A DNA stretch of 64,000 bases from Gammaproteobacteria bacterium (GTDB lineage Bacteria; Pseudomonadota; Gammaproteobacteria; PIWD01): positions 19,489-83,488 of the forward strand of contig PIWD01000001.1 in assembly GCA_003354005.1 (NCBI GenBank), written 5' to 3'. The notes under the pieces were generated by a model, which worked only from the letters and a program-made list of their open reading frames with translations, was not told where the DNA came from and searched no databases. Of this stretch, positions 11,048 through 56,303 are shown one piece after another. Each line of letters opens with the position of its first letter. Positions within the stretch are counted from its first letter, which is position 1. A program made the position numbers and the translations under genes.

Positions 11048-11255
11048 GCCGTCTCTTCACAGGTTAACGCGACACGCCCTGTTGCTGGCCTGTCGCTGGA
11101 ATGAACTGTAACAGCTTAGTGTGAAATAGTCAAGAAATTAGAACAGGTCAGTGCTGTTCATTATGTTTACGTGCATTTATTCTTTGCTACAAAATATGTC
11201 GAAGATCACAAGAGACGCTCGACTAGAAGGGTGCATTGCATCCTCGACCTACCTT
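11048..11255. repeat. Dispersed intergenic repeat, copy B2 (between divergent hsp20 and nuoA)
   Basis: About 80% identical over about 200 bp to 42902-43085; inverted GCCGTCTCTTCACAGG ... CACAAGAGACGCTCG termini. Confidence 0.6.
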
Positions 11256-39149: not shown

Positions 39150-39626
39150 ATGTTTGAAAAAAAATTAATCATCTTTGATTTGCAGGGCACACTATTACAG
39201 GATACAACGTTTTATGATAGAGAACTCCTATTGTTTCCAGGTGTACGTGAGATGCTAGAAAGCTTAAAAGCGCGTGATTATCAGCTCGCCATTGCAACTG
39301 CAGCAACTCGCTCTGCTTTAGAACATGTGCTTGAACGGCTTAACTTAACCCATTTATTCGATATAACGCGTTCCATAAGTGAAACCAAGCCCAAGCCCAA
39401 TCCTTTGATGCTGCAAGAAATTCTAAATGTCCAACAACTCAAAGTGGAACAAGCCTTATATGTCGGTGACAGCGTACAGGATTTTAAAATGGGTTATGAA
39501 TTGCATATGGATGTTGTAGCCGTTGCTTATGGCGAAACTTACTATACCCAGGATGATTTAGATACCTCTCACGTAAGGTATACCATCGATAAACCAGAGG
39601 CATTGCTGAATTTGCTGAAAACCTAG
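39150..39626 (+). CDS. HAD-superfamily hydrolase-like protein (motif I reads DLQ instead of DxD)
   Basis: IIFDLQGTLL motif I, downstream K and DD motifs (VGDSVQDFKMG). Confidence 0.55.
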   Translation: MFEKKLIIFDLQGTLLQDTTFYDRELLLFPGVREMLESLKARDYQLAIATAATRSALEHVLERLNLTHLFDITRSISETKPKPNPLMLQEILNVQQLKVEQALYVGDSVQDFKMGYELHMDVVAVAYGETYYTQDDLDTSHVRYTIDKPEALLNLLKT

Positions 39627-40207
39627 AAAACATGTATTCCATTTTTTTCTAATAAGTCGATTAATGTGATCATAGGCAAGCCTGTGATCGCGCTGTGATC
39701 AGTTGATTCAATTGATTTGAACAATGTAATACCTGTACCTTCAATTTTTGTGCTCCCAGAACAGTTAAAAGGTTGATCTCTATCTAAATACTTACCAATC
39801 ACCTGATCGGATAGGGTGCGAAATCGTACTTTTGTCACGACATACGTTGTTTCACATTGCTGTGTGTACGTATTCATAACACATAATCCCGTATAAGAAT
39901 AAACAGTACGTCCGCTGAATGCTTGTAGCTGCTGTATCGCAGTTTCTCGGTTCAATGGTTTCCCAAAGATTCTATGATCAAGTTCAGCAACTTGATCTCC
40001 CGCAATAATAACAGCTTTAGGATAGTGCTGATGAACAGCCTTAGCCTTATTTTCTGATAAACGGGTTACCAACACTTTGGCTAATTCATGTAGTCTCGCT
40101 GTCTCATCAATCTCAGGTGTTGCGCATCTAAAGGGTATGCCAAGCATTTGAAGCTGCTGGCTACGGTATACTGATGATGAAGCTAAGACGAGTTCTAACG
40201 AGATCAA
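39623..40207 (-). CDS. maf: Maf-like nucleoside triphosphate pyrophosphatase (YceF/Maf)
   Basis: 194 aa, LASSS..R..LL N-terminus, Maf fold; convergent with HAD gene. Confidence 0.75.
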   Translation of the reverse strand: MISLELVLASSSVYRSQQLQMLGIPFRCATPEIDETARLHELAKVLVTRLSENKAKAVHQHYPKAVIIAGDQVAELDHRIFGKPLNRETAIQQLQAFSGRTVYSYTGLCVMNTYTQQCETTYVVTKVRFRTLSDQVIGKYLDRDQPFNCSGSTKIEGTGITLFKSIESTDHSAITGLPMITLIDLLEKNGIHVF

Positions 40208-40208
40208 T

Positions 40209-42896
40209 TTATGCTAGCCCTTTTACGTTTACTGGCTCTATTCCGTTTCCAATGTTATTGTGCTGTATTTGTTGCATAGTGTCTTGACATAGTAGATTAC
40301 TAGCTGGCATGATTCCGTTTTGTGTGCCTTGTGCTTCTTTAGTTACTTCTTCAAAAATTTTCTGTATATTGTATCCCAATCTTCTGTTCAAAATAAATAT
40401 GTTAATGATTGTAAAAATAAGTATACCAATATTACAGCCTGCAACAAGTAGCGTTGGGGACATGCTTATACCCACTAAGATAAATATACCAGTAGAGCAT
40501 ATTAATTCAATGAGAAAGATAAGAAAAAGTAAATTCATAGTGATATTTTGAGTATTTCTAACACATTCTTCTGATCTGATAAGGGATAAGAGATCCTCTA
40601 ATCTTGGCAATTCAAACTCAGCACTACGCAATTTTGGGTTTCCGCCAATAGAGAAACCACATTCTGCCTCATGTATCATACTCTGGTCATTAGAACCATC
40701 ACCTACAGCCCAGACAGTGATAGCATCTTTTTTCAGATTCTTGACAAACTTTCCTTTCTCGGCAGGGGACTGTGAACATAAGGGACTTGGAAACCATAAT
40801 TTATGAAACTCACTAATATTACTATTTTTTTTAGCAGTACAGCTTTGAGGAAGTTTTTTGAAGACTGATCTAAAAAGTTTATTATATGGACTTTCTAGTG
40901 TAAGACTATCAGCACCACTTATTATCTGAACCTTTATGTTATTTTTTATACAATAAATAATGAGTTCTTCAGTAATAACTTTGGTATCTTCAGGGGTAAA
41001 GGAAAAGCTGGTATCTGCTAGTTGCTTAAAATTATCTTCACCTGTAATTTTTTTTGCGACATAGGATTGTTGTTTGTTGCTGTTTTTTGCGATGCAATCT
41101 ATACCATGGTTCCGCATATATTTTGAATTCCCAATAATTATCTCAGTGCCATCTTCGTACCTTCCGTGTACACCACTGCCATAACCTTCATTTTCTATTA
41201 TAGTTGCCTTTTGTTGCTTATACGTGAATTCCTTATCATTCATCTTCTTAAGTAACTCTTTGGAGATTGACATAGCATGTTGGCTTTCCTGTGTGCTTTC
41301 TAATGACAATATTTTTGACACGATGTCAGCATTTAATTTACTACCTATTTTAACATCCTCGGCATAAAGTGAGTTATTTTTTGCCAATGTGCCAGTCCAG
41401 TCAAAGCAGATAGTTTTTTTTCCAGTCCTATTTGTAATAGGAAGGTGTAAGGAATGTATCTCTCTAAACTTCAGGCCAAATTTTCGTAAGACGCTACTAG
41501 CATGGAAAATTGACGAATAAAAACCTACAAATATAGTTGTTGGACAGAAGGCATTAAGGCAAGTAATAATATGAACTAAGATAAAGAACGGCAAGTCTAG
41601 ACAAATACCAACTGTTACAACTATAGCTACCCCTATAAGCAAGGAAATACAAAAAAGATTTGGCCATATTTTTATCAATCCAGACCTTTTATCCTCAGTC
41701 TCAGCAAGTGATCTGTTTTGCTCATCTTTTTTGTTTTTTATGAGCTTATACCCGTTCTTCAATGCCTTGACTGTTATTGTGAAATTTGAGCAATTTTTAG
41801 CACCAAAATATAGTTCTCTACCCAATTGGCAAGCAAACTCCCCAGTTATCCCTGTAACATCTTTATTGTCAATATTACAGCTTATTGTTTCTTTTTCTTC
41901 AAACCTAATTATAGTGGATCTGATGGGAACTTTCTCACCAGGAGAAATATGAAGAATATCATCTTCCTTAATTTTTTTTACAGGTTTCCACATTACTGTT
42001 TTTTGCGAATTTTCTTTACATTCTACTTTTACAAACCGATTGTAATTGGTATATTCCATGTTAAATTTTTCTACTTTCTCTTTTGTACCTGGGTTACTAA
42101 GTGCTGCATCGATGACGAATCCAGCAAGTAGAGCAAAAAGACTGATAAGGGAAGGAATAAAGAAGGGAGTGGTAATGCCAGCTAATAAAAACGGAGTAGG
42201 ATATATGACTACAAAAATTGATACTATAAAAGGTATGAAGACTGTAAGTGCGCCAATGCAGTGAATGCCAGGAGGCTGGATGCCATTTTTTTTTCCTTGG
42301 AATATATTGAGTTCATTGCAAGCCTTTTTAAGGATTGGTAGAGATGTATAGAGGATGATAAGGCTCAAAGGTATCATGATCACAAAATAGCCTGGCATAC
42401 AAAAGAAGCTTGTTAGTAGGGACACCCAATTTAAAGATTCAGCTACTTTTAATAAGGCAATAGATGCGCCTACAAGAAAAGTACTTGTAAGGCTTGATTG
42501 TACTTTCCAATCCTCATAACAATGCAATGCTTCCGAAATTTCAATTTTGGCTTGATAATTATCAGTAGTAAGCAAGTGACCTCCCTTGAACTCAGGAATC
42601 TCACTCTCAGAGTCGATGCGGTAAACTTCTGGAAAGGGAAGCTTTTTTGAATAAGATGGCTTCTGATGTTCTCCAGTGAAATACTCTTTTATCCTGTTAA
42701 AAAAGCTTTTCTCTTCTTCCAATAAGCCGAGTCGTTGTATTTTGTAGTGGTAGCCATTGCCTAGAAAAGTATCTAGCTGAGTACTTACCTTTTTCTCCCC
42801 TATCTCCTTATATTCATACTTTTCATCCGTGGACATGCCACCTGCACCAGATTGGTGTTGAATACAAGAATAATAACTAAAGGTTTTTTGTGTCAT
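40209..42896 (-). CDS. Divergent P-type-ATPase-like membrane protein (TGE, D-W-TGTL, GDGSND motifs) with about 140-aa N-terminal extension
   Basis: 895 aa; TM pairs flanking actuator (ITGEF) and P-domain (CFDWTGTLA ... WAVGDGSNDQSM); CPT in a TM helix; lysine of DKTGT replaced by Trp. Confidence 0.6.
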   Translation of the reverse strand: MTQKTFSYYSCIQHQSGAGGMSTDEKYEYKEIGEKKVSTQLDTFLGNGYHYKIQRLGLLEEEKSFFNRIKEYFTGEHQKPSYSKKLPFPEVYRIDSESEIPEFKGGHLLTTDNYQAKIEISEALHCYEDWKVQSSLTSTFLVGASIALLKVAESLNWVSLLTSFFCMPGYFVIMIPLSLIILYTSLPILKKACNELNIFQGKKNGIQPPGIHCIGALTVFIPFIVSIFVVIYPTPFLLAGITTPFFIPSLISLFALLAGFVIDAALSNPGTKEKVEKFNMEYTNYNRFVKVECKENSQKTVMWKPVKKIKEDDILHISPGEKVPIRSTIIRFEEKETISCNIDNKDVTGITGEFACQLGRELYFGAKNCSNFTITVKALKNGYKLIKNKKDEQNRSLAETEDKRSGLIKIWPNLFCISLLIGVAIVVTVGICLDLPFFILVHIITCLNAFCPTTIFVGFYSSIFHASSVLRKFGLKFREIHSLHLPITNRTGKKTICFDWTGTLAKNNSLYAEDVKIGSKLNADIVSKILSLESTQESQHAMSISKELLKKMNDKEFTYKQQKATIIENEGYGSGVHGRYEDGTEIIIGNSKYMRNHGIDCIAKNSNKQQSYVAKKITGEDNFKQLADTSFSFTPEDTKVITEELIIYCIKNNIKVQIISGADSLTLESPYNKLFRSVFKKLPQSCTAKKNSNISEFHKLWFPSPLCSQSPAEKGKFVKNLKKDAITVWAVGDGSNDQSMIHEAECGFSIGGNPKLRSAEFELPRLEDLLSLIRSEECVRNTQNITMNLLFLIFLIELICSTGIFILVGISMSPTLLVAGCNIGILIFTIINIFILNRRLGYNIQKIFEEVTKEAQGTQNGIMPASNLLCQDTMQQIQHNNIGNGIEPVNVKGLA

Positions 42897-42901
42897 AAAC
42901 A

Positions 42902-43085
42902 GCCGTCCAAGTCTTGAATTAATCTACGAACGCTGAAGTGTACTGCTACTCTGTGAGAATGTCAAGAAATATTTGAACAGGCAGACACTGCTTATTAAAT
43001 ATGCACGTGCATTTGATACTTGTTACAAAATACCGAAGATTACAAGAGAGGCTCGACTGATGGGGTATCTCGTATCACCCACATC
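42902..43085. repeat. Dispersed intergenic repeat, copy B3 (between ATPase-like gene start and nadA end)
   Basis: About 80% identical to 11048-11255 including GTCAAGAAAT...GAACAGG and GATTACAAGAGAGGCTCGACT. Confidence 0.6.
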
Positions 43086-43187
43086 AAGGAAGTAGTTTTA
43101 CTACACATACGATAAAACTGACTTATTTCAGCCATAGCCTAAAGTTGGAAGTTTCGTTATTTGTGGTAAATGACACTAAAATCTTTG

Positions 43188-44213
43188 TTAAGCCTGTGTT
43201 GTGAAGTGTAGCATTCGCTCAATCGGTTTACGTGCTTTTTGGATAATGCCACCATCCAGTATAATTTCTCCCCATTCATTCTGCAAAGCATCATATAAAT
43301 TTTGTAAGTGGTTCATCGCCATCCATGGGCAGTGTCCGCAGCTCTTGCAGGTGGCACCATGTCCACTTGTGGGTGCCTCTAGCAGCAATTTATGTGGTGC
43401 AGCCTGCTGCATTTTGTAGAAAATACCACGATCTGTTGCGACGATAAAGGTTGTATGCGGTAGCTCGAAGGTTGCTTTAATCAATCGACTGGTTGAACCC
43501 ACCACATCTGCTAATGCAATAACTGCTTTAGGAGCCTCTGGATGCACCAATAGTCCTGCTTCTGGGTACTGCTGCTGAAGTTTCTGTATGCCATTGGCCT
43601 TAAATTCTTCATGTACCACACATGCACCACCCCACACAACCATATCAGCACCTGTTTGATTCTGAATGTAATGACCTAAATGACGATCAGGAGCCCAAAT
43701 TAGTTTCTCTCCATGTCGTGTTAAATGATCAACCACATCGCATGCAATGCTAGAGGTAACAACCCAATCAGCCCGTGCTTTAACGGCAGCGGCTGTATTG
43801 GCGTATACCACAACCGTACGTTCTGGGTGCTGGTCACAAAATGCTGAAAATTCTTTGATGGGGCATCCTAAATCAAGAGAACAAGTTGCGTCTAAGCTTG
43901 GCATTAGCACTTTTTTGTGGGGACTTAAAATTTTAGCTGTCTCACCCATAAAGCGTACACCAACAACAACCAATATATCTGCAGGATGCTGATGACCGAA
44001 TCGCGCCATTTCTAGTGAATCCGAAACAATACCGCCAGTTTCCTCAGTTAATGCTTGTAAAATAGGATCAGTATAATAATGTGTAATTAATACAGCATTT
44101 TTTTCACGCAGCATGACGTGGATACGCTGTATCAAATCAGATTGTTGTATCTCAGTTAGCTCTGGAACAAGCGTGGTGTCTGGCATTTCAAAGGTTGCAG
44201 ATGGTCTAAACAT
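43188..44213 (-). CDS. nadA: Quinolinate synthase NadA
   Basis: 341 aa; conserved Cys ligands (CxxC..., C..C.HC) and NadA triple-repeat fold pattern. Confidence 0.8.
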
Positions 44214-44437: not shown

Positions 44438-45376
44438 ATGAAAGGATGGATTTTATACCATAAACAGCAAGATGAACTCAGTCAAGAAGACTACGATATT
44501 CATCGATTACTAGAGGCGGCCAAGGCAAAGCATATACCCTTAAAGATTTATTCACCAAAAGAATTCGAGTTAATCGTTAGCCGTGATGATCAAAAAAGTG
44601 TCTTATTGAATGGTAAGATGATTGCATTACCTGATTTCTTAATACCGAGGATTGGTGCGAAAACGACTTATTTTGGATTGGCTGTAATTCGACAGTTAGA
44701 GCGATTAAATATTTATGTGTGCAATATGTCTTCAACTGTTGAGATCGTTAAAGATAAATTACGTATTCATCAAATCTTGGCAGAAAGTAATCTACCAACC
44801 CCCAAAACTATGTTACTGAAGTTCCCAGTTAATATTGAATTAGTTGAGGAAGAAATTAACTTTCCACTTATCATAAAAGATATTAACGGTACCGAGGGTC
44901 AAGGTATTTATCTGTGTGAGTCTTCCCTTAAATTTAAAGAATTAATGGAATTGCTAGATAGCTATAAAGAAAACATCCATATGATTATCCAAGAATTTAT
45001 ATCAGGGAGCAAAGGAACAGACCTACGAGTTATTGTGATAGGTGGTAAGGTTATTGGTTGTATTAAGCGTACAGCAACTGATGGCAGTTTTAAGGCAAAT
45101 TATTCCTTAGGTGCTAAAATTGAGCCTTTCCAACTAAACCCAGAAATTGAATCGCTAGCATTAGAAACAGCAAAATTGCTGAATTTAGAAACAGCAGGGA
45201 TTGACCTTTTATTTAATGAGGAGGGCTATAAGGTATTAGAGGCGAATTCATCTCCAGGATTTGAGGGTTTTGAAAAAGTGAATGGTAAATATGTTGCTGA
45301 GGAAATTCTATCGCATGTCTTGTTACAAACGTCTGAGTGTATAAAAAAAAGGGGGAATCAATGTGTCGATTTATAA
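44438..45376 (+). CDS. RimK-like ATP-grasp ligase
   Basis: 312 aa; ATP-grasp pattern (PLIIKDINGTEGQGIYL, DLRVIVIGGKVIG, AGIDLLF), pre-ATP-grasp N-domain. Confidence 0.65.
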   Translation: MKGWILYHKQQDELSQEDYDIHRLLEAAKAKHIPLKIYSPKEFELIVSRDDQKSVLLNGKMIALPDFLIPRIGAKTTYFGLAVIRQLERLNIYVCNMSSTVEIVKDKLRIHQILAESNLPTPKTMLLKFPVNIELVEEEINFPLIIKDINGTEGQGIYLCESSLKFKELMELLDSYKENIHMIIQEFISGSKGTDLRVIVIGGKVIGCIKRTATDGSFKANYSLGAKIEPFQLNPEIESLALETAKLLNLETAGIDLLFNEEGYKVLEANSSPGFEGFEKVNGKYVAEEILSHVLLQTSECIKKRGNQCVDL

Positions 45377-46218
45377 CTTATCTAGGTAAGAAACCAGTTT
45401 TAATCGGCGAAATTTTAGATAAGCCATCTAATTCACTCATCAATCAAAGCAGAAGGGCAAAAGAAAGTGCAACAGACTTAAATGCGGATGGTTTTGGTAT
45501 TGGGTGGTATAATTTTTCCATTGATGATAACCCTGGTATCTTTAAATCGATACAACCAGCTTGGAACAACAACAATCTGCAAAATTTGGCTGAAAAGATA
45601 CAATCTACTTGTTTTGTAGGACATGTTCGTGCATGTACCGTAGGGGATATCACCACCTTAAACTGTCACCCTTTTTTTTATAAGAATTATTTATTTGTGC
45701 ATAATGGTACAATCGATAACTTTTCTCGATTTAAACGGCCTATTTTGAATGAGCTTTCTGACACTTATTTTGATATAATCAAGGGGCAGAGTGACTCGGA
45801 ACATTTTTTTGCATTACTCATGGACTGTTTTTATAAAATAAAAGGTGATCACTTTTTAAATGATATGACACTCGCTTTTAAAGTAGCAATCCAAAAACTT
45901 CAAACCATACGAGATGCGATTGGCACTCACTCTTGCATAAAGTTAAACACTATGATCACAAATGGGCAAGAGCTACTTGCTTTGCGCTACACATACCCTT
46001 TAGAAAAAAAACATTTATCACTGTACTATGCATCAGCAGCTTACGTGAAGTATGATGGAAAGGTTCTTATGCAACGTATAAGAGATCAGGCAGCAACGGC
46101 CGTTGTAATTGCCTCAGAACCACTTACAGAGATATCAGAAACTTGGAAAAAAATTCCAGAAAACCATATCCTGAAAGTGGATAGGGGTTTTAACCTCAAT
46201 TTCGAGAAAAGCAACTAA
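45361..46218 (+). CDS. Class-II (Ntn) glutamine amidotransferase-like protein, YafJ/EgtC-type, Cys2 nucleophile
   Basis: Starts MCRF(I/L)(T/A)YLG as EgtC/YafJ; ATG at 45361 overlaps rimK-like stop by 16 nt; 285 aa. Confidence 0.6.
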   Translation: MCRFITYLGKKPVLIGEILDKPSNSLINQSRRAKESATDLNADGFGIGWYNFSIDDNPGIFKSIQPAWNNNNLQNLAEKIQSTCFVGHVRACTVGDITTLNCHPFFYKNYLFVHNGTIDNFSRFKRPILNELSDTYFDIIKGQSDSEHFFALLMDCFYKIKGDHFLNDMTLAFKVAIQKLQTIRDAIGTHSCIKLNTMITNGQELLALRYTYPLEKKHLSLYYASAAYVKYDGKVLMQRIRDQAATAVVIASEPLTEISETWKKIPENHILKVDRGFNLNFEKSN

Positions 46219-46410: not shown

Positions 46411-47910
46411 GTGGTAAGACAAGAGGCTTTTTATTTCAGTTGTGGTAGTTGGGATGGTGTAATGGATATTAGTTATTTCTTTAGTAGGGTGTTTCTTGTA
46501 CTGAGGTCTGTAAGTGATGCGCTTGCTACTTTAGTTCGCATGATCATTTTTGCACTTCTTACTCTTGCGATTCCAGTAGGTTTTGGAGTCGTTCTTGGGT
46601 TGACAGTAGGGCTTGGCTTTAGTATGTTATTTTATGTGTTTGATGTGCTATTTATCTGGAAGCTATATAGAGTCAATAGACTCTTTCCTATTGTTCTTGG
46701 TTATCCTAGAGCCCTCTCTCTTATCTCTTTAGTGTTTTTACATTTTGCTAGAGCATTGGGGTTCTGCTCAGAAATAGCATTTGTTTTTGCCCTTCTATAT
46801 ACCTCCAAGCTAATCATTTTCTATCTACTATGCCTAGCCGTATCGGCATGTGTTGGTTTGTTTGTGGGCACATTTTTAGGTATAGTTGTTTTTGCTTGTA
46901 TTTATAGAGAATATAGTGCATTAACTTTGGTCATTCCTCTTGTCTTATTCGCAGTTTTCATTTTTTTAATTTTCTTGTCACTATACTTTTCCTTTACTGG
47001 TTCAATTTTTGCTGTGAAATTGTGTGTGGGTTTCTGCTTTATTGTGTTTATCATTGAATGTAAGAAGTGTAAAATGTATTTACGGCATGCGTTATCTCTT
47101 GATTTTTGGTATGTAATACGTGAAATTCTACTTGGTGCCAGGGCTATTGAGTTATGGGCCGAGTTCTTGGGTTCAGGTCTTGTAGTTAGTAATATAGGCA
47201 GTAATAATAACGTGTTGAAAAATCTGTTGCTGGTAATGGATTCAGATGAAGATTTACAGTCTCTTCAATTAGTTACTTCAGATCAATTAGAGCAATTAGA
47301 TCAATTAGATCGATTAGAGCAATTAGAGCAATTAGAGAAGGAAATTCGATGTGGAATTTTACATGAGTTGCCAGATGCTCCTGTTAGAACAGGAGCTATG
47401 GTAGCTGTGTGTGGTTTAGAGTCTCTTATTAGGTGGTGTAGAGAGAAGGTTGACAGTGATGCTGCCATTAATGCTCCCATTATGGGAGCTTCTTTAGCAC
47501 TGCAAAAAATATACGTAGGCTACGGAATGGAAACTGTCAACTCTTTTTTTGATATTATTGAGAGTGATCAGGAGATACGTGGTATTTTAGGCATTGGAGA
47601 AGGAGTGAATAAAAATACATTCTGTAATAACTACATTAAAAAACGAAATGCTGTACAAAGAAAGATTAATGCTATACAAGGGGAGTTAATGGATGATGAA
47701 CAGATTGAAGAGCAAGAGCAAGGAGTAATAGTTGAGATAGAAAGTGAATACTGCCTTAATTTTCTTCAACAACAGGATCTCGCCCAGGAGGGATTTCAGC
47801 CCATTGCTGTACGCCCCCAGCCAGACATTGTACAGCAGTTCATTGATGTGGAAGTGCCTGCTGGGGGGCTTCCTAGTTTGCATTTAGGTGCTAGCTCTTA
47901 TTGGAGCTAA
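46411..47910 (+). CDS. Hypothetical polytopic membrane protein with C-terminal coiled-coil/acidic soluble domain; contains in-frame 9-bp tandem repeat
   Basis: About 230 aa of TM helices, then LEQLDQLDRLEQLEQLEKE encoded by (CAATTAGAG/T)n at about 47285-47340; start codon uncertain. Confidence 0.5.
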   Translation: MVRQEAFYFSCGSWDGVMDISYFFSRVFLVLRSVSDALATLVRMIIFALLTLAIPVGFGVVLGLTVGLGFSMLFYVFDVLFIWKLYRVNRLFPIVLGYPRALSLISLVFLHFARALGFCSEIAFVFALLYTSKLIIFYLLCLAVSACVGLFVGTFLGIVVFACIYREYSALTLVIPLVLFAVFIFLIFLSLYFSFTGSIFAVKLCVGFCFIVFIIECKKCKMYLRHALSLDFWYVIREILLGARAIELWAEFLGSGLVVSNIGSNNNVLKNLLLVMDSDEDLQSLQLVTSDQLEQLDQLDRLEQLEQLEKEIRCGILHELPDAPVRTGAMVAVCGLESLIRWCREKVDSDAAINAPIMGASLALQKIYVGYGMETVNSFFDIIESDQEIRGILGIGEGVNKNTFCNNYIKKRNAVQRKINAIQGELMDDEQIEEQEQGVIVEIESEYCLNFLQQQDLAQEGFQPIAVRPQPDIVQQFIDVEVPAGGLPSLHLGASSYWS

Positions 47911-50500: not shown

Positions 50501-50530
50501 GGAACAGCCAGCCTGTTCCAATATTTCTTG
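50501..50530 (+). terminator. Rho-independent terminator candidate after thiDE
   Basis: GGAACAG-CCAGC-CTGTTCC hairpin followed by AATATTTCTT. Confidence 0.5.
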
Positions 50531-50802
50531 ACATTCTCGTAGAGCAACAGTACACTCTAGATATGAGAATGAGGAAATCGTACGAATTTAGGATAAAGCC
50601 GAGTGCTGAGCAGGTCGCTCAACTAGGTCGGTTTTCGGTTTGTTGTCGCTTTGTTTGGAACAGGGTCACTTTAGTGGCTGGGCTACCGTGTTAGTCTGTG
50701 GAGAAGATGGTTGGCATCAGGTTTCCCTACAAACGAGTGATCTAGTAGTGACCTGAATCTCTATTCAGGAATCGCCTTCCTTTAGTGGGGGGGAGGATGT
50801 CA
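50527..50802 (+). mobile_element. Miniature IS200/IS605-family (TnpB-only type) derivative, copy 2
   Basis: TTGACA-N17-TACACT at 50528-50556; mini-ORF 50563-50694 MRMRKSYEFRIKPSAEQVAQLGRFSVCCRFVWNRV... = TnpB N-terminal HTH signature (YxFRxxPxxEQ...GxxRFVxN); 3' part conserved with copy 1. Confidence 0.65.
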
Positions 50803-54172: not shown

Positions 54173-54253
54173 GCACCTATTCAAGCTCAAAGCACAACAC
54201 TCCCATTTATTTTAAACATAAACATAGGTTCAGCAAGCCTATTATATCGAAAG

Positions 54254-54330
54254 GTAGTTGTAATCAGACATCTACGGGTCGTAAGAGTCCATTACTAGAA
54301 CAATTAGCGACTGTTTATCGGAGGGGGGAG
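54254..54330. repeat. Dispersed intergenic repeat, copy B4 (Y-module)
   Basis: GTAGTTGTAATCAGACATCTACGGGTCGTAAGAG...CTAGAACA.TTAG matches the reverse complement of 10160-10234. Confidence 0.55.
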
Positions 54331-56020: not shown

Positions 56021-56143
56021 ATGAGACGATTTGTCAAAATAGGTGAAGCAGCAAGGCTTTTGGGCTCAAATTCCTCGATATTCAGAAAGTGGGAGTCAAC
56101 AGGGGAGCTGCAACATGCAAAAAACAAGAAATTTCCCAGATAA
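56021..56143 (+). pseudogene. Truncated MerR/AlpA-type HTH (excisionase or IS607-TnpA N-terminus-like) ORF remnant
   Basis: 40-aa ORF MRRFVKIGEAARLLGSNSSIFRKWESTGELQHAKNKKFPR*: I.EAA.LLG.S...(I/L).RW...G.(L/F)P pattern of phage Xis/AlpA HTH; ends before the expected C-terminal wing. Confidence 0.4.
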
Positions 56144-56303
56144 TTAAAAAAATAGTAATGTGACAAAATATGGCGTGGAGTTAGCATGCATGGGGGACGA
56201 TGAACCTGTCGATTTTTATACGAACTGATTAATAGTTAGACTCCCTTCATTTAGTTTTTGAAATATGCCAAATTTTTCCTTGCAAAGTGTAAATTATTTG
56301 TAA

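What the first reader, a model, noticed from the sequence alone, without database searches (positions are those of the whole stretch)
40209..42896. P-type-ATPase-like membrane protein with DWTGT in place of the invariant DKTGT, plus a novel N-terminal extension
The architecture fits a P-type ATPase: TM pair, actuator domain with ITGE, TM pair, a P-domain that starts CFDWTGTLA, a large N-domain, the hinge GDGSNDQSM, and C-terminal TM helices with FCPTT reminiscent of a CPx motif. The phosphorylated Asp is present, but the adjacent invariant Lys is Trp. About 140 N-terminal residues precede TM1. This is either a highly divergent transporter subfamily or a P-type ATPase scaffold repurposed for a non-pumping role. 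It is bracketed by dispersed repeat B3, which suggests horizontal or accessory origin.
Basis: partly seen in the sequence, partly recalled or inferred. Interest (0 to 1): 0.6.

Follow-up and report, generated by a model that had tools for sequence, protein, structure and literature searches.

The report
Degenerate heavy-metal-pump-like membrane ATPase homologue
This is an intact gene for a very divergent relative of bacterial heavy-metal pumps (P1B-type ATPases) that keeps the phosphorylated aspartate and the ATP pocket but has lost three residues thought essential for pumping, so it is probably a crippled or repurposed pump, and it has no close relative in any public dataset.

Summary
The 895-aa ORF at 40209-42896 (-) is real, and it is a P-type ATPase homologue of the P1B (CopA/ZntA-like) fold. 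Evidence: TIGR01525 E=6e-26, and Foldseek of an AlphaFold model to LpCopA at E=2e-28. DWTGT sits exactly on the DKTGT column.

Two details in the finding are wrong:
- FCPTT is the M4 CPx motif, just before the P-domain. It is not in the C-terminal helices.
- The "ITGE" string is three residues out of register. Every profile alignment puts T348-G349-Ile350 in the TGE slot.

TGD is also changed, to SGA-D. The canonical Cu/Zn ligands in M5 and M6 and the N-terminal metal-binding domain are absent.

The generic HAD phosphotransfer core is kept (Asp499, Thr501, Ser660, Lys714, Asp733, Asp737). So is the P1B ATP pocket (Glu533, His540, Gly573, Gly575).

Exhaustive HMMER over 1.84 billion representatives finds no relative above 70 bits. 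However, the source genome's housekeeping proteins are also singletons at 90% identity.

An apparently undescribed Legionella family with DLNGT shows the same three losses (Lys, TGD Asp, TGE Glu). The pattern therefore recurs.

The claimed repeat bracket is not supported, and GC3 matches the host genes. Function is unproven. The most likely reading is a slow-cycling or non-pumping derivative.

The parts
40209..42896 (-). Whole ORF, 895 aa plus stop: divergent P1B-type P-type ATPase homologue
   Evidence: ORF; Pfam, NCBIfam, PDB sequence matches; AlphaFold pTM 0.72; Foldseek to 4bbj/3rfu/7r0g, E down to 2.4e-28
42522..42896 (-). N-terminal region, residues 1-125: orphan sequence replacing the usual HMA/CxxC metal-binding domain
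   Evidence: No homologue covers it in the exhaustive search. There is no HMA hit in Pfam at E<=1. pLDDT is below 50 for residues 1-124. No CxxC is visible in the translation.
42096..42488 (-). Membrane helices MA, MB, M1 and M2 (about residues 137-267)
   Evidence: hydropathy; AlphaFold helices 121-153, 157-200, 211-238 and 246-267; alignment to P1B homologues
41685..42089 (-). Actuator (A) domain, residues 270-404
   Evidence: PF00122 match over 299-456 at 25.4 bits, below the 28.1 cut-off; beta-rich segment in the model
41838..41855 (-). T348-G349-I350-T351-G352-E353: the TGE slot holds TGI, and a TGE string lies 3 residues downstream, out of register
   Evidence: alignments; codons ACA GGG ATA ACT GGG GAG; strand starts at residue 353
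41520..41684 (-). Membrane helices M3-M4, residues 405-459
41538..41546 (-). C451-P452-T453: CPx motif of M4. It is aligned to the CPC of CopA, with the second Cys replaced by Thr.
41388..41402 (-). D499-W500-T501-G502-T503: phosphorylation motif, with Trp in place of the Lys of DKTGT. It is followed by L-A instead of L-T.
40557..41429 (-). P and N domains, residues 490-780. The ATP-pocket residues E533, H540, G573 and G575 are kept. HP is changed to HA.
   Evidence: PF00702 match over 494-744 at 27 bits; column analysis
40908..40919 (-). S660-G661-A662-D663: the TGD(N) motif changed to SGAD
40686..40703 (-). G732-D733-G734-S735-N736-D737: hinge and Mg-binding motif GDGxND, intact
40383..40553 (-). 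Membrane helices M5-M6, residues 782-838. The YN motif (M5) and the MxxSS motif (M6) are absent. Glu797, Cys821 and Asn822 lie in the membrane.
40212..40382 (-). C-terminal tail, residues 839-895: a helical extension of M6 followed by a low-confidence tail
42937..42965 (-). Promoter-like site TTGACA-17 nt-TACACT, 41 nt upstream of the ATG, inside a dispersed intergenic repeat
   Evidence: scan; the number of sites in the region is no higher than in shuffles, so this is a lead only; the same piece lies upstream of ileS at 50511-50556, in the matching orientation
42937..43077 (.). Pieces of dispersed intergenic repeats in the nadA-ATPase spacer (upstream side only)
   Evidence: I4, D11; blastn to 11120-11224 and 50511-50556

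Best explanation
The gene encodes an inner-membrane protein built on the P1B (heavy-metal pump) P-type ATPase scaffold. The layout is eight membrane helices (MA, MB, M1-M6), an actuator domain, and a P domain with an inserted nucleotide-binding domain.

Shown by alignment:
- The generic HAD phosphotransfer core is intact. It comprises the Asp499 nucleophile, Thr501, Ser660 (motif II), Lys714 (motif III) and Asp733/Asn736/Asp737 (Mg site).
- The P1B ATP-pocket residues Glu533, His540, Gly573 and Gly575 are also kept.
- The residues that P-type pumps add to that core are lost: the Lys of DKTGT (now Trp500), the Asp of TGD (now Ala662, giving SGAD) and the in-register Glu of the TGE dephosphorylation loop (now Ile350).
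- The Cu/Zn ligands of M4-M6 are reduced to Cys451-Pro452, and there is no N-terminal metal-binding domain.

Inferred:
- The protein can probably still bind ATP-Mg and may still form an aspartyl phosphate.
- Phosphoryl transfer, and especially actuator-catalysed dephosphorylation, should be strongly slowed.
- It is therefore unlikely to run a normal fast E1-E2 pump cycle or to export Cu+/Zn2+ in the canonical way.
- It most likely acts as a slow-cycling or non-pumping derivative. This could be a nucleotide- or ligand-dependent membrane protein, or a pump for an unknown substrate with a remodelled site involving Cys451, Thr453, Glu797, Cys821 and Asn822.

Expression and substrate are unknown.
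For: Homology and fold:
- NCBIfam TIGR01525 scores 91 bits, E=5.9e-26.
- A profile built from the top homologues scores 171 bits over residues 134-837.
- The AlphaFold model has pTM 0.72. Its best Foldseek matches are all P1B pumps (4bbj, 7r0g, 3rfu, ATP7B, ZntA), with E down to 2.4e-28.

Kept and lost residues:
- Column-by-column analysis against 94 and 140 homologues shows D499, T501, G502, T503, K714, G732, D733, N736, D737, H540 and G575 kept.
- K500W, D662A, E350I, T505A, C453T and P460Y are changed, and YN and MxxSS are missing.
- Only 49% of 86 family-conserved columns are kept, against a median of 94% and a minimum of 57% in the other 94 sequences.
- Yet every HAD-core residue survives. 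That argues for selection on phospho-Asp chemistry rather than random decay.

Precedent:
- 33 cluster representatives of a Legionella family carry DLNGT. All keep D, K(III) and D/N/D. They have lost the Lys (33/33), the TGD Asp (32/33, mostly T-G-A-D) and the TGE Glu (29/33).
- The same triple loss is therefore conserved across many species elsewhere.

Known roles of the lost residues:
- SERCA Lys352 is listed under enzyme phosphorylation and Glu183 under dephosphorylation (table in PMC3350626).
- DKTGT is the signature motif of the superfamily (PMC10654040).

Intactness: the ORF is 895 codons long in about 35% GC DNA. GC falls from codon position 1 to 3, as in neighbouring genes.
Against: - There is no orthologue, so conservation and selection (dN/dS) cannot be measured.
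- There are no expression data.
Whether Glu353 can reach the phosphorylation site, or how Trp500 packs, was not tested.
- In HAD phosphatases the residue after the nucleophile is commonly hydrophobic (my own knowledge). Trp may therefore be tolerated and the enzyme could still turn over.
- The AlphaFold model was guided by an alignment of canonical pumps, so its fold agreement is not fully independent evidence.
- The neighbouring HAD gene also looks degenerate (DLQGT, no cap). That hints at relaxed selection in this genome.
Confidence: 0.5

Rival explanations
1. It is still a working ion pump of a new, very divergent P1B subgroup. Trp500 is tolerated, Asp663 (SGAD) substitutes for the TGD Asp by a one-residue shift, and Glu353 (TGITGE) substitutes for the TGE Glu on a remodelled loop. 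The substrate is bound by Cys451, Thr453, Glu797, Cys821 and Asn822.
For: - All HAD-core and ATP-pocket residues are kept.
- An Asp directly follows the altered TGD position. The same G-A-D arrangement is conserved in 24-27 of 33 Legionella DLNGT proteins, which suggests a functional shifted Asp.
- A literal TGE lies 3 residues from the canonical slot.
- The CP of the M4 CPx motif and Pro814 of M6 are kept.
- The full eight-helix pump architecture is retained.
Against: - No homologue among 140 has Glu at the position of E353 together with loss of the in-register Glu in a DKTGT-bearing protein.
- The spacing to conserved residues on both sides fits I350, not E353, as the TGE position.
- To my knowledge, even conservative changes of the DKTGT Lys in SERCA abolish transport (Maruyama and MacLennan 1988, recalled from memory, not checked here).
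- Three catalytic changes plus the loss of the metal ligands occur together.
Confidence: 0.28
2. It is a decaying relic: a former metal pump under relaxed selection in a genome undergoing reductive or fast evolution. The reading frame is still open, but there is no function.
For: - It is the most degenerate sequence in the alignment, keeping 49% of conserved columns.
- It scores below the Pfam PF00122, TIGR01494 and TIGR01525 cut-offs.
- It is a singleton.
- The neighbouring HAD-like ORF is truncated and has an altered motif I.
- Its amino-acid composition is shifted to K/N/I/S/F, as in the other orphan ORFs of the window.
Against: - A 2.7-kb frame without a stop at 35% GC is very unlikely to persist through the amount of divergence seen, about 20% identity.
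- The surviving residues are precisely the HAD core and the ATP pocket.
- The stop codon abuts the maf start, and a promoter-like site lies upstream. This is consistent with an expressed operon member.
Confidence: 0.12
3. It is an accessory or effector-like membrane protein of an intracellular, Legionellales-like bacterium. It would be delivered to, or act on, host membranes rather than serve bacterial metal homeostasis. This reading is not exclusive of the ones above.
For: - The window mixes core genes with low-GC orphan ORFs, repeat proteins and an LssY_C-domain protein.
- The only other proteins found with the same triple loss are from Legionella species.
- One such gene lies on a contig with fragmented urocanase genes.
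Against: - No secretion-system genes are present in the window.
- No secretion signal was tested.
- The organism is unidentified. NadA is at most 69% identical to diverse Gammaproteobacteria, none of them Legionella, among the best 80 hits.
- The profile of the Legionella family does not score the query clearly better than an unbiased canonical profile: 88.9 against 77.0 bits.
Confidence: 0.1

Closest known systems
P1B-1 Cu(I)-exporting P-type ATPases (CopA of Legionella pneumophila, PDB 3rfu/4bbj; Archaeoglobus CopA, 7r0g; human ATP7B)
   Same: - Best sequence and structure matches.
- The same eight-helix topology, with MA and MB before M1.
- An A domain, and a P domain with an inserted N domain.
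- Cys-Pro in M4.
- The His of the HP motif and the GxG of the N domain.
- The motif III Lys and GDGxND.
   Different: - DKTGT is DWTGT.
- The TGE slot holds TGI.
- TGDN is SGAD.
- HP is HA.
- CPC is CPT.
- The M5 YN and M6 MxxSS copper ligands are absent.
- There is no HMA/CxxC domain.
- Identity is about 20%, and the TIGR01525 score is 91 bits against a cut-off of 346.
Legionella 'DLNGT' P1B-like proteins. They are annotated only as heavy metal translocating or cation transport ATPases, for example in L. longbeachae, L. cherrii, L. worsleiensis and L. bononiensis. I found no paper describing the motif.
   Same: - Loss of the DKTGT Lys to a hydrophobic residue.
- Loss of the TGE Glu.
- TGDN replaced by (T/S)-G-A-D.
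- Retention of the nucleophile Asp, the motif III Lys and the D/N/D of the hinge.
   Different: - They have Asn, not Thr, at D+2 (DLNGT against DWTGT).
- They keep CPC and an HMA-like CxxC N-terminus.
- They keep the last Thr of the motif.
- They form a conserved multi-species family.
- Their profile gives the query 88.9 bits, close to the 77.0 bits of an unbiased canonical profile. Kinship is therefore unproven and the shared losses may be convergent.
P0003 / P0271: two metagenomic P1B-like proteins (Logan assemblies), of which P0003 is the best non-self hit
   Same: - No HMA domain.
- A non-canonical M4 motif (SPT).
- A similar M1-M2 stretch (VIYP...).
- M5/M6 without YN or MxxSS.
- Full-length alignment over about 700 residues.
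   Different: - P0003 keeps DKTGT, TGES and TGD; P0271's motifs were not inspected.
- Identity to the query is only 22%, at 70 bits.
- P0003 is itself closer to canonical pumps (173 bits) than to the query.
HAD-superfamily phosphatases (generic DxDx(T/V) enzymes)
   Same: All four HAD core motifs are present. The residue after the nucleophile is hydrophobic, as is usual in HAD phosphatases (my own knowledge; PF00702 match).
   Different: The query keeps Thr rather than Asp at D+2. It also keeps the whole pump architecture, with A and N domains and eight membrane helices.

Membership tests
P-type ATPase superfamily | Signature DKTGT[LIVM][TIS] around the phosphorylated Asp | tested here: not met
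   The sequence is DWTGTLA. The Asp, Thr, Gly and Thr are kept, while the Lys is Trp and the last Thr is Ala. Of 140 homologues, 132 have Lys here, 128 of them together with the T, D and E of the other motifs. The signature pattern is quoted from my own knowledge and from PMC10654040.
P-type ATPase superfamily | Curated profile cut-offs (Pfam PF00122 and PF00702; NCBIfam TIGR01494) | tested here: inconclusive
   PF00702 scores 27.0 against 26.4 (just passes). PF00122 scores 25.4 against 28.1 (fails). TIGR01494 scores 54.5 against 62.3 (fails).
P-type ATPase superfamily | A-domain TGE(S) loop with a catalytic Glu | tested here: not met
   The in-register residues are T348-G349-I350. E353 lies 3 residues later, on the column that is Pro in 20 of 22 canonical sequences. 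Whether E353 can compensate could not be tested without coordinates.
P-type ATPase superfamily | HAD core: nucleophile Asp, motif II Thr/Ser, motif III Lys, GDGxND | tested here: met
   D499, S660, K714 and G732-D733-G734-S735-N736-D737 are present.
P-type ATPase superfamily | TGD motif of the P domain | tested here: not met
   The motif is S660-G661-A662, followed by D663.
P-type ATPase superfamily | Overall A/P/N/M fold | tested here: met
   The AlphaFold model has pTM 0.72 and a confidently modelled core. Its top 50 Foldseek PDB matches are all P-type ATPases. The model was guided by a homologue alignment.
P-type ATPase superfamily | ATP-dependent aspartyl-phosphate formation and ion transport | not testable with these tools
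   This needs biochemistry.
P1B heavy-metal ATPases (TIGR01525) | Subfamily profile score at or above the cut-off | tested here: not met
   The score is 91.4 bits against a cut-off of 346.25. It is still the best-scoring NCBIfam model.
P1B heavy-metal ATPases (TIGR01525) | Eight membrane helices, with two extra N-terminal helices (MA, MB) | tested here: met
   Hydropathy and modelled helices. The best structural matches are P1B pumps.
P1B heavy-metal ATPases (TIGR01525) | CPx-type motif in M4 (CPC, CPH, SPC, ...) | tested here: inconclusive
   The motif is C451-P452-T453, aligned to CPC. Cys and Pro are kept, but Thr in the third position is found in only 1 of 22 comparison sequences.
P1B heavy-metal ATPases (TIGR01525) | Subgroup-specific metal ligands in M5/M6 (for example YN and MxxSS for P1B-1) | tested here: not met
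   YN falls in a gap, and MxxSS is replaced by C-N-I-G-I.
P1B heavy-metal ATPases (TIGR01525) | N-terminal HMA/CxxC or His-rich metal-binding domain | tested here: not met
   There is no PF00403 hit at E<=1 and no CxxC in residues 1-135. The region has no homologue.
P1B heavy-metal ATPases (TIGR01525) | N-domain SEHP and GxG nucleotide-binding motifs | tested here: inconclusive
   S538, H540, G573 and G575 are kept, while the Pro is replaced (SQHAMS).
Legionella DLNGT P1B-like group (undescribed) | D-L-N-G-T motif with CPC and an HMA-like N-terminus | tested here: not met
   The query has DWTGT and CPT and no CxxC.
Legionella DLNGT P1B-like group (undescribed) | Joint loss of the DKTGT Lys, the TGD Asp (giving G-A-D) and the TGE Glu | tested here: met
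Legionella DLNGT P1B-like group (undescribed) | Specific sequence kinship (the family profile scores clearly better than a generic P1B profile) | tested here: inconclusive
   The family profile scores 88.9 bits and an unbiased canonical profile 77.0 bits. Distances are saturated and the NJ placement is uninformative.

The most novel reading that the evidence does not exclude
This ORF and the Legionella DLNGT proteins may be two instances of a so far undescribed kind of P1B-derived membrane protein. Such proteins keep the HAD phospho-aspartate core and the ATP pocket, but have dropped the pump-specific Lys/Asp/Glu trio. They would no longer run the Post-Albers transport cycle and would use the scaffold for something else. 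Candidates include a long-lived phosphoenzyme switch, a nucleotide- or metal-sensing membrane protein, or a host-directed factor of intracellular bacteria.
Probability: 0.25. Interest if true: 0.7.

Novelty: new variant of a known kind. Interest (0 to 1): 0.45.

Why it matters
DKTGT is treated as the invariant signature of every P-type pump. Natural proteins that keep the whole pump architecture and the phosphorylated Asp, but replace the neighbouring Lys together with the TGD Asp and the TGE Glu, would show which parts of the catalytic site are dispensable. They could also define a class of pump-derived pseudoenzymes in bacteria.

The single ORF here cannot establish that on its own. It led, however, to a conserved Legionella family with the same pattern, and that family can be tested experimentally.

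For genome annotation, the case shows that "heavy metal translocating P-type ATPase" labels are being given to proteins that lack residues required for the canonical cycle.

Tried and rejected
- Looked for orthologues. The word-indexed search found only the protein itself plus one 22%-identical pump. The scan of 185,579 species genomes found none. Exhaustive HMMER found nothing above 70 bits.
- Tried to locate the source contig, without success. Neither the ATPase nor NadA is in the gene-position index.
- Tried to name the organism from NadA. The best hits are only 62-69% identical, to many gammaproteobacterial orders. Ten housekeeping proteins are all singletons at 90% identity and carry no names. 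The organism stays unidentified.
- Tested whether the ATPase was inserted into a conserved nadA-maf neighbourhood. None of 80 nadA loci has maf, rluC, ppiD or rimK nearby, so synteny is uninformative.
- Tested specific kinship with the Legionella DLNGT family. Distances are saturated, and the NJ sister is a single canonical sequence. Profile scores are not clearly different. The result is left open.
- Tested whether P0003 defines a family containing the query. P0003 has one 46%-identical relative and otherwise matches canonical pumps better than it matches the query. Rejected.
- Searched the literature for DWTGT and DLNGT motifs, for pseudo-P-type ATPases, for FUPA families and for a Legionella P-type ATPase effector. 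Nothing relevant was found.
- Searched for a documented Lys352-Asp627 contact in SERCA, which might explain the joint loss. It was not found in the held library, so that idea remains my conjecture.
- Considered a sequencing error for Trp. It was rejected because TGG is two changes away from AAA/AAG.
- Considered recent horizontal transfer. It is not supported by GC3, although low overall GC reflects amino-acid composition.
- Rfam found only the two tRNAs in the window.


Full report
**What is in the sequence.** The minus strand of 40209..42896 carries one uninterrupted ORF of 895 codons, starting with ATG. Its GC content is 35.2%. GC falls from codon position 1 (0.41) through position 2 (0.34) to position 3 (0.30), as in the neighbouring genes. 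At this base composition a stop-free run of 895 codons has a chance of about 1e-29 (my arithmetic).
- DWTGT at residues 499-503
- GDGSNDQS at 732-739
- FCPTT at 450-454
- ITGE at 350-353

Trp500 is encoded by TGG, two substitutions away from either Lys codon. It is therefore not a single-base error.

**It is a P-type ATPase homologue of the P1B kind.**
- Pfam gives weak matches: PF00702 (27.0 bits, cut-off 26.4) and PF00122 (25.4 bits, cut-off 28.1).
- The best NCBIfam model is the heavy-metal subfamily TIGR01525 (91 bits, E=5.9e-26), far below its cut-off of 346. The general model TIGR01494 scores 54.5 against a cut-off of 62.3.
- Against solved structures, the best sequence match is the copper pump CopA of Legionella pneumophila, 3rfu. 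In that alignment, query 'ticfDWTGTla' lies on 'tlvvDKTGTlt' and query 'nafCPTtif' lies on 'iiaCPCalg'.
- I built an AlphaFold2 model on an alignment of 95 sequences. It has pTM 0.72 and mean pLDDT 74.8, with a confident core and a disordered stretch at residues 1-124.
- The best Foldseek matches of that model are all P1B pumps: 4bbj, 7r0g, 3rfu, ATP7B and ZntA. E-values go down to 2.4e-28, and the TM-score normalised by target is about 0.6.
- Hydropathy and the modelled helices give eight membrane helices in the P1B order: MA, MB, M1, M2, A domain, M3, M4, P/N domains, M5, M6.

- FCPTT is not in the C-terminal helices. It lies in M4, directly before the P domain, and is the positional equivalent of the CPC motif.
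- ITGE is not an intact actuator motif. The HMMER alignment to 3rfu and three separate MAFFT alignments all put T348-G349-I350 on the T-G-E columns. Glu353 then falls on the column that is Pro in 20 of 22 canonical sequences. The spacing to conserved Asp343 upstream and Gly359 downstream fits this register without gaps. In the model, the beta strand that normally follows the TGES loop begins at residue 353. The sequence reads TGITGE, so a literal TGE exists three residues out of register. Whether it can act could not be tested, because model coordinates are not exposed.
- The N-terminal 120-135 residues are about as long as the usual metal-binding domain plus linker of P1B pumps. What is unusual is the content. 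There is no HMA match and no CxxC. No homologue covers this region in any search, and model confidence is low.

**How far the catalytic site deviates.** I compared the query with 94 homologues, using the 86 columns that are at least 80% conserved among them. The query keeps 42 of these columns, or 49%. The other sequences keep a median of 94% and a minimum of 57%.

Kept:
- Asp499, Thr501, Gly502 and Thr503
- Ser660-Gly661 (HAD motif II)
- Lys714 (HAD motif III)
- Gly732, Asp733, Gly734, Asn736 and Asp737
- In the N domain: Glu533, Ser538, His540, Gly573 and Gly575

Changed:
- Lys500 to Trp
- Thr505 to Ala
- in-register Glu350 to Ile
- Asp662 to Ala, so that TGDN reads SGAD
- the Pro of the HP motif
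- Cys453 to Thr
- Pro460 to Tyr
- the M5 'YN' and the M6 'MxxSS' copper ligands, which are absent

The generic HAD phosphotransfer machinery and the P1B ATP pocket therefore survive. The residues that P-type pumps add to the HAD core do not. The held literature lists SERCA Lys352 under enzyme phosphorylation and Glu183 under dephosphorylation (PMC3350626). It also calls DKTGT the signature motif of the superfamily (PMC10654040).

**Relatives.**
- The word-indexed search of 5.8 billion clusters returned only the protein itself, a singleton from an NCBI contig of 92,499 bp, and one 22%-identical pump.
- A scan of one genome for each of 185,579 species found nothing.
- Exhaustive HMMER over 1.84 billion representatives found 592 hits at E<=1e-3. 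The best non-self score was 70 bits (P0003).
- P0003 is an 829-aa metagenomic protein. It has an SPT motif in M4, no HMA domain, and intact DKTGT, TGES and TGD. It has one 46%-identical relative, and otherwise matches canonical pumps (173 bits) better than it matches the query. It therefore does not define a family that contains the query.
- The orphan status needs context. Ten housekeeping proteins of the window, including NuoB, NuoG, SerS, ThiG and NadA, are also singletons at 90% identity. NadA is at most 69% identical to any of the best 80 genomic matches, which are spread over many gammaproteobacterial orders.
- The source is thus an unsampled gammaproteobacterial lineage. Lack of orthologues says little about how old or how conserved the gene is.

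**A recurring pattern.**
- Eight of the 150 best hits lack the DKTGT Lys, carrying DLNGT or DVSGT instead. All eight also lack the TGD Asp, and six of the eight lack the TGE Glu.
- Searching with one of them (P0021) recovered the family. It has 33 cluster representatives, including annotated proteins of L. longbeachae, L. cherrii, L. worsleiensis and L. bononiensis. These are labelled only as heavy-metal or cation-transport ATPases.
- Across the 33, the nucleophile Asp, the motif III Lys and the hinge D/N/D are kept in 33/33, and CPC is kept in 33/33. The Lys is Leu in 32/33. The TGE Glu is lost in 29/33. TGDN reads T-G-A-D in most: Ala in 27/33, followed by Asp in 24/33.
- The query shares the hydrophobic replacement of Lys, the loss of the in-register Glu and the exact G-A-D arrangement.
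- I could not show specific kinship. Distances are saturated. The family profile scores the query 88.9 bits, against 77.0 bits for a canonical profile not selected for similarity to the query. The shared losses may be convergent.
- I found no paper mentioning DLNGT or DWTGT in this context.
- My conjecture is that the Lys, the TGD Asp and the TGE Glu form a functionally coupled set, lost together once pumping is abandoned. I found no supporting text in the held library.

**Genomic setting.**
- The gene order is ppiD, rluC and a short HAD-like ORF on the plus strand. Then come maf, the ATPase homologue and nadA on the minus strand, followed by rimK on the plus strand.
- The ATPase stop codon is 1 nt from the maf start. 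No terminator-like site was found in the whole scanned region 39400-43400, which includes this junction. Co-transcription with maf is therefore plausible.
- The 291-nt spacer upstream of the gene holds pieces of dispersed intergenic repeats at 42937-43077.
- One 46-nt piece recurs upstream of ileS at 50511-50556. In both places it carries TTGACA-17 nt-TACACT pointing at the downstream gene. The number of promoter-like sites in the region does not exceed that in shuffled sequence, so this is only a lead.
- Related repeat pieces also lie upstream of ftsK, the nuo operon and comM. They are genome-wide intergenic elements, not a bracket around this gene.
- The gene's overall GC (0.352) is 2.3 SD below that of the housekeeping genes (0.416 +/- 0.028). 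Its GC3 (0.304) lies within their range (0.347 +/- 0.042). The difference comes from codon position 1, that is, from a K/N/I/S/F-rich amino-acid composition like that of the other orphan ORFs. There is no sign of recent transfer.
- Synteny could not be used. None of 80 nadA loci in other Gammaproteobacteria has maf, rluC, ppiD or rimK nearby.

**Most likely mechanism.** Two things are shown: the P1B scaffold, and the pattern of kept and lost residues. The rest is inferred.
- ATP-Mg can probably still bind through Glu533, His540, Gly573 and Gly575.
- Asp499 may still be phosphorylated, with help from Thr501, Ser660, Lys714, Asp733 and Asp737.
- Without the DKTGT Lys, the TGD Asp and an in-register TGE Glu, both phosphoryl transfer and actuator-driven dephosphorylation should be slow.
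- The canonical Cu+/Zn2+ ligands and the metal-binding domain are gone. The membrane site is left with Cys451, Thr453, Glu797, Cys821 and Asn822.

I rate the readings as follows:
- a slow-cycling or non-pumping derivative: about 0.5
- a still-working pump with shifted substitutes (Asp663, Glu353): about 0.28
- a decaying relic: about 0.12
- a host-directed role: possible, not exclusive of the others, and weakly supported

**Verdict.** The protein is a new and extreme variant of a known kind. It fails several membership tests for canonical P-type and P1B ATPases while clearly sharing their fold and ancestry. Taken alone, as a single ORF in an unsampled lineage, it is of moderate interest. The link to a conserved Legionella family with the same catalytic losses is the more testable lead.

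Noticed in passing
Proteins P0021, P0027, P0057, P0103, P0109, P0119, P0130, P0141 and P0152-P0176; loci L084 (gene 6001-8469) and L085 (gene 2038-4437): A conserved Legionella family of P1B-like ATPases has DLNGT instead of DKTGT. T-G-A-D replaces TGDN, the TGE Glu is lost, and GD[AGS]xND replaces GDGxND. CPC and an HMA-like CxxC N-terminus are kept. Members are annotated only as heavy metal or cation transport ATPases, for example in L. longbeachae, L. cherrii, L. worsleiensis and L. bononiensis. I found no paper with this motif.
   Followed up: partly
window 39150-39626 (+): A short HAD-like ORF of 158 aa sits between rluC and maf. Its motif I reads DLQGT, with Gln where the second catalytic Asp is expected. 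The cap region seems to be missing: the Pfam HAD_2 match starts at profile position 75. It is possibly a degenerate phosphatase.
   Followed up: no
window 3055-5814 (-): A 919-aa ORF with no Pfam match is built largely from about 12 tandem copies of a 117-132-nt (39-44 aa) repeat.
   Followed up: no
window 25915-27786 (+) and 27901-28926 (+): Two adjacent low-GC (0.35) orphan ORFs share several similar segments, as do their upstream regions. They appear to be diverged paralogues, and neither has a Pfam match.
   Followed up: no
window 46411-47910 (+), repeat at 47265-47336: An orphan 499-aa ORF with no Pfam match contains a 9-nt tandem repeat (CAATTAGAT-like), which gives a short three-residue peptide repeat.
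   Followed up: no
window 10075-10271, 11120-11243, 29540-29790, 42937-43077, 50511-50764, 54216-54328, 56143-56299, 62618-62778: Families of dispersed intergenic repeats lie upstream of core genes (nuo, ftsK, ileS, comM) as well as the ATPase homologue. The piece shared by the ATPase and ileS upstream regions carries TTGACA-17-TACACT oriented toward the downstream gene in both places.
   Followed up: partly
whole window: All ten housekeeping proteins looked up (NuoB, NuoG, NuoM, SerS, TldD, NadA, ThiG, ThiDE, ComM, Hsp20) are singleton clusters at 90% identity in a collection of about 15 billion proteins. All come from one unnamed NCBI contig of 92,499 bp. The genome has no close sequenced relative. 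NadA is at most 69% identical to other Gammaproteobacteria.
   Followed up: partly
window 8013-10076 (+): A 687-aa fusion protein combines VTT (DedA-like), PAP2 phosphatase and LssY_C domains. The LssY_C domain is named after a Legionella secretion locus.
   Followed up: no
window 44438-46218 (+): A RimK-like ATP-grasp gene and an overlapping class-II glutamine amidotransferase-like gene both have low GC (0.35-0.36) compared with the flanking core genes.
   Followed up: no
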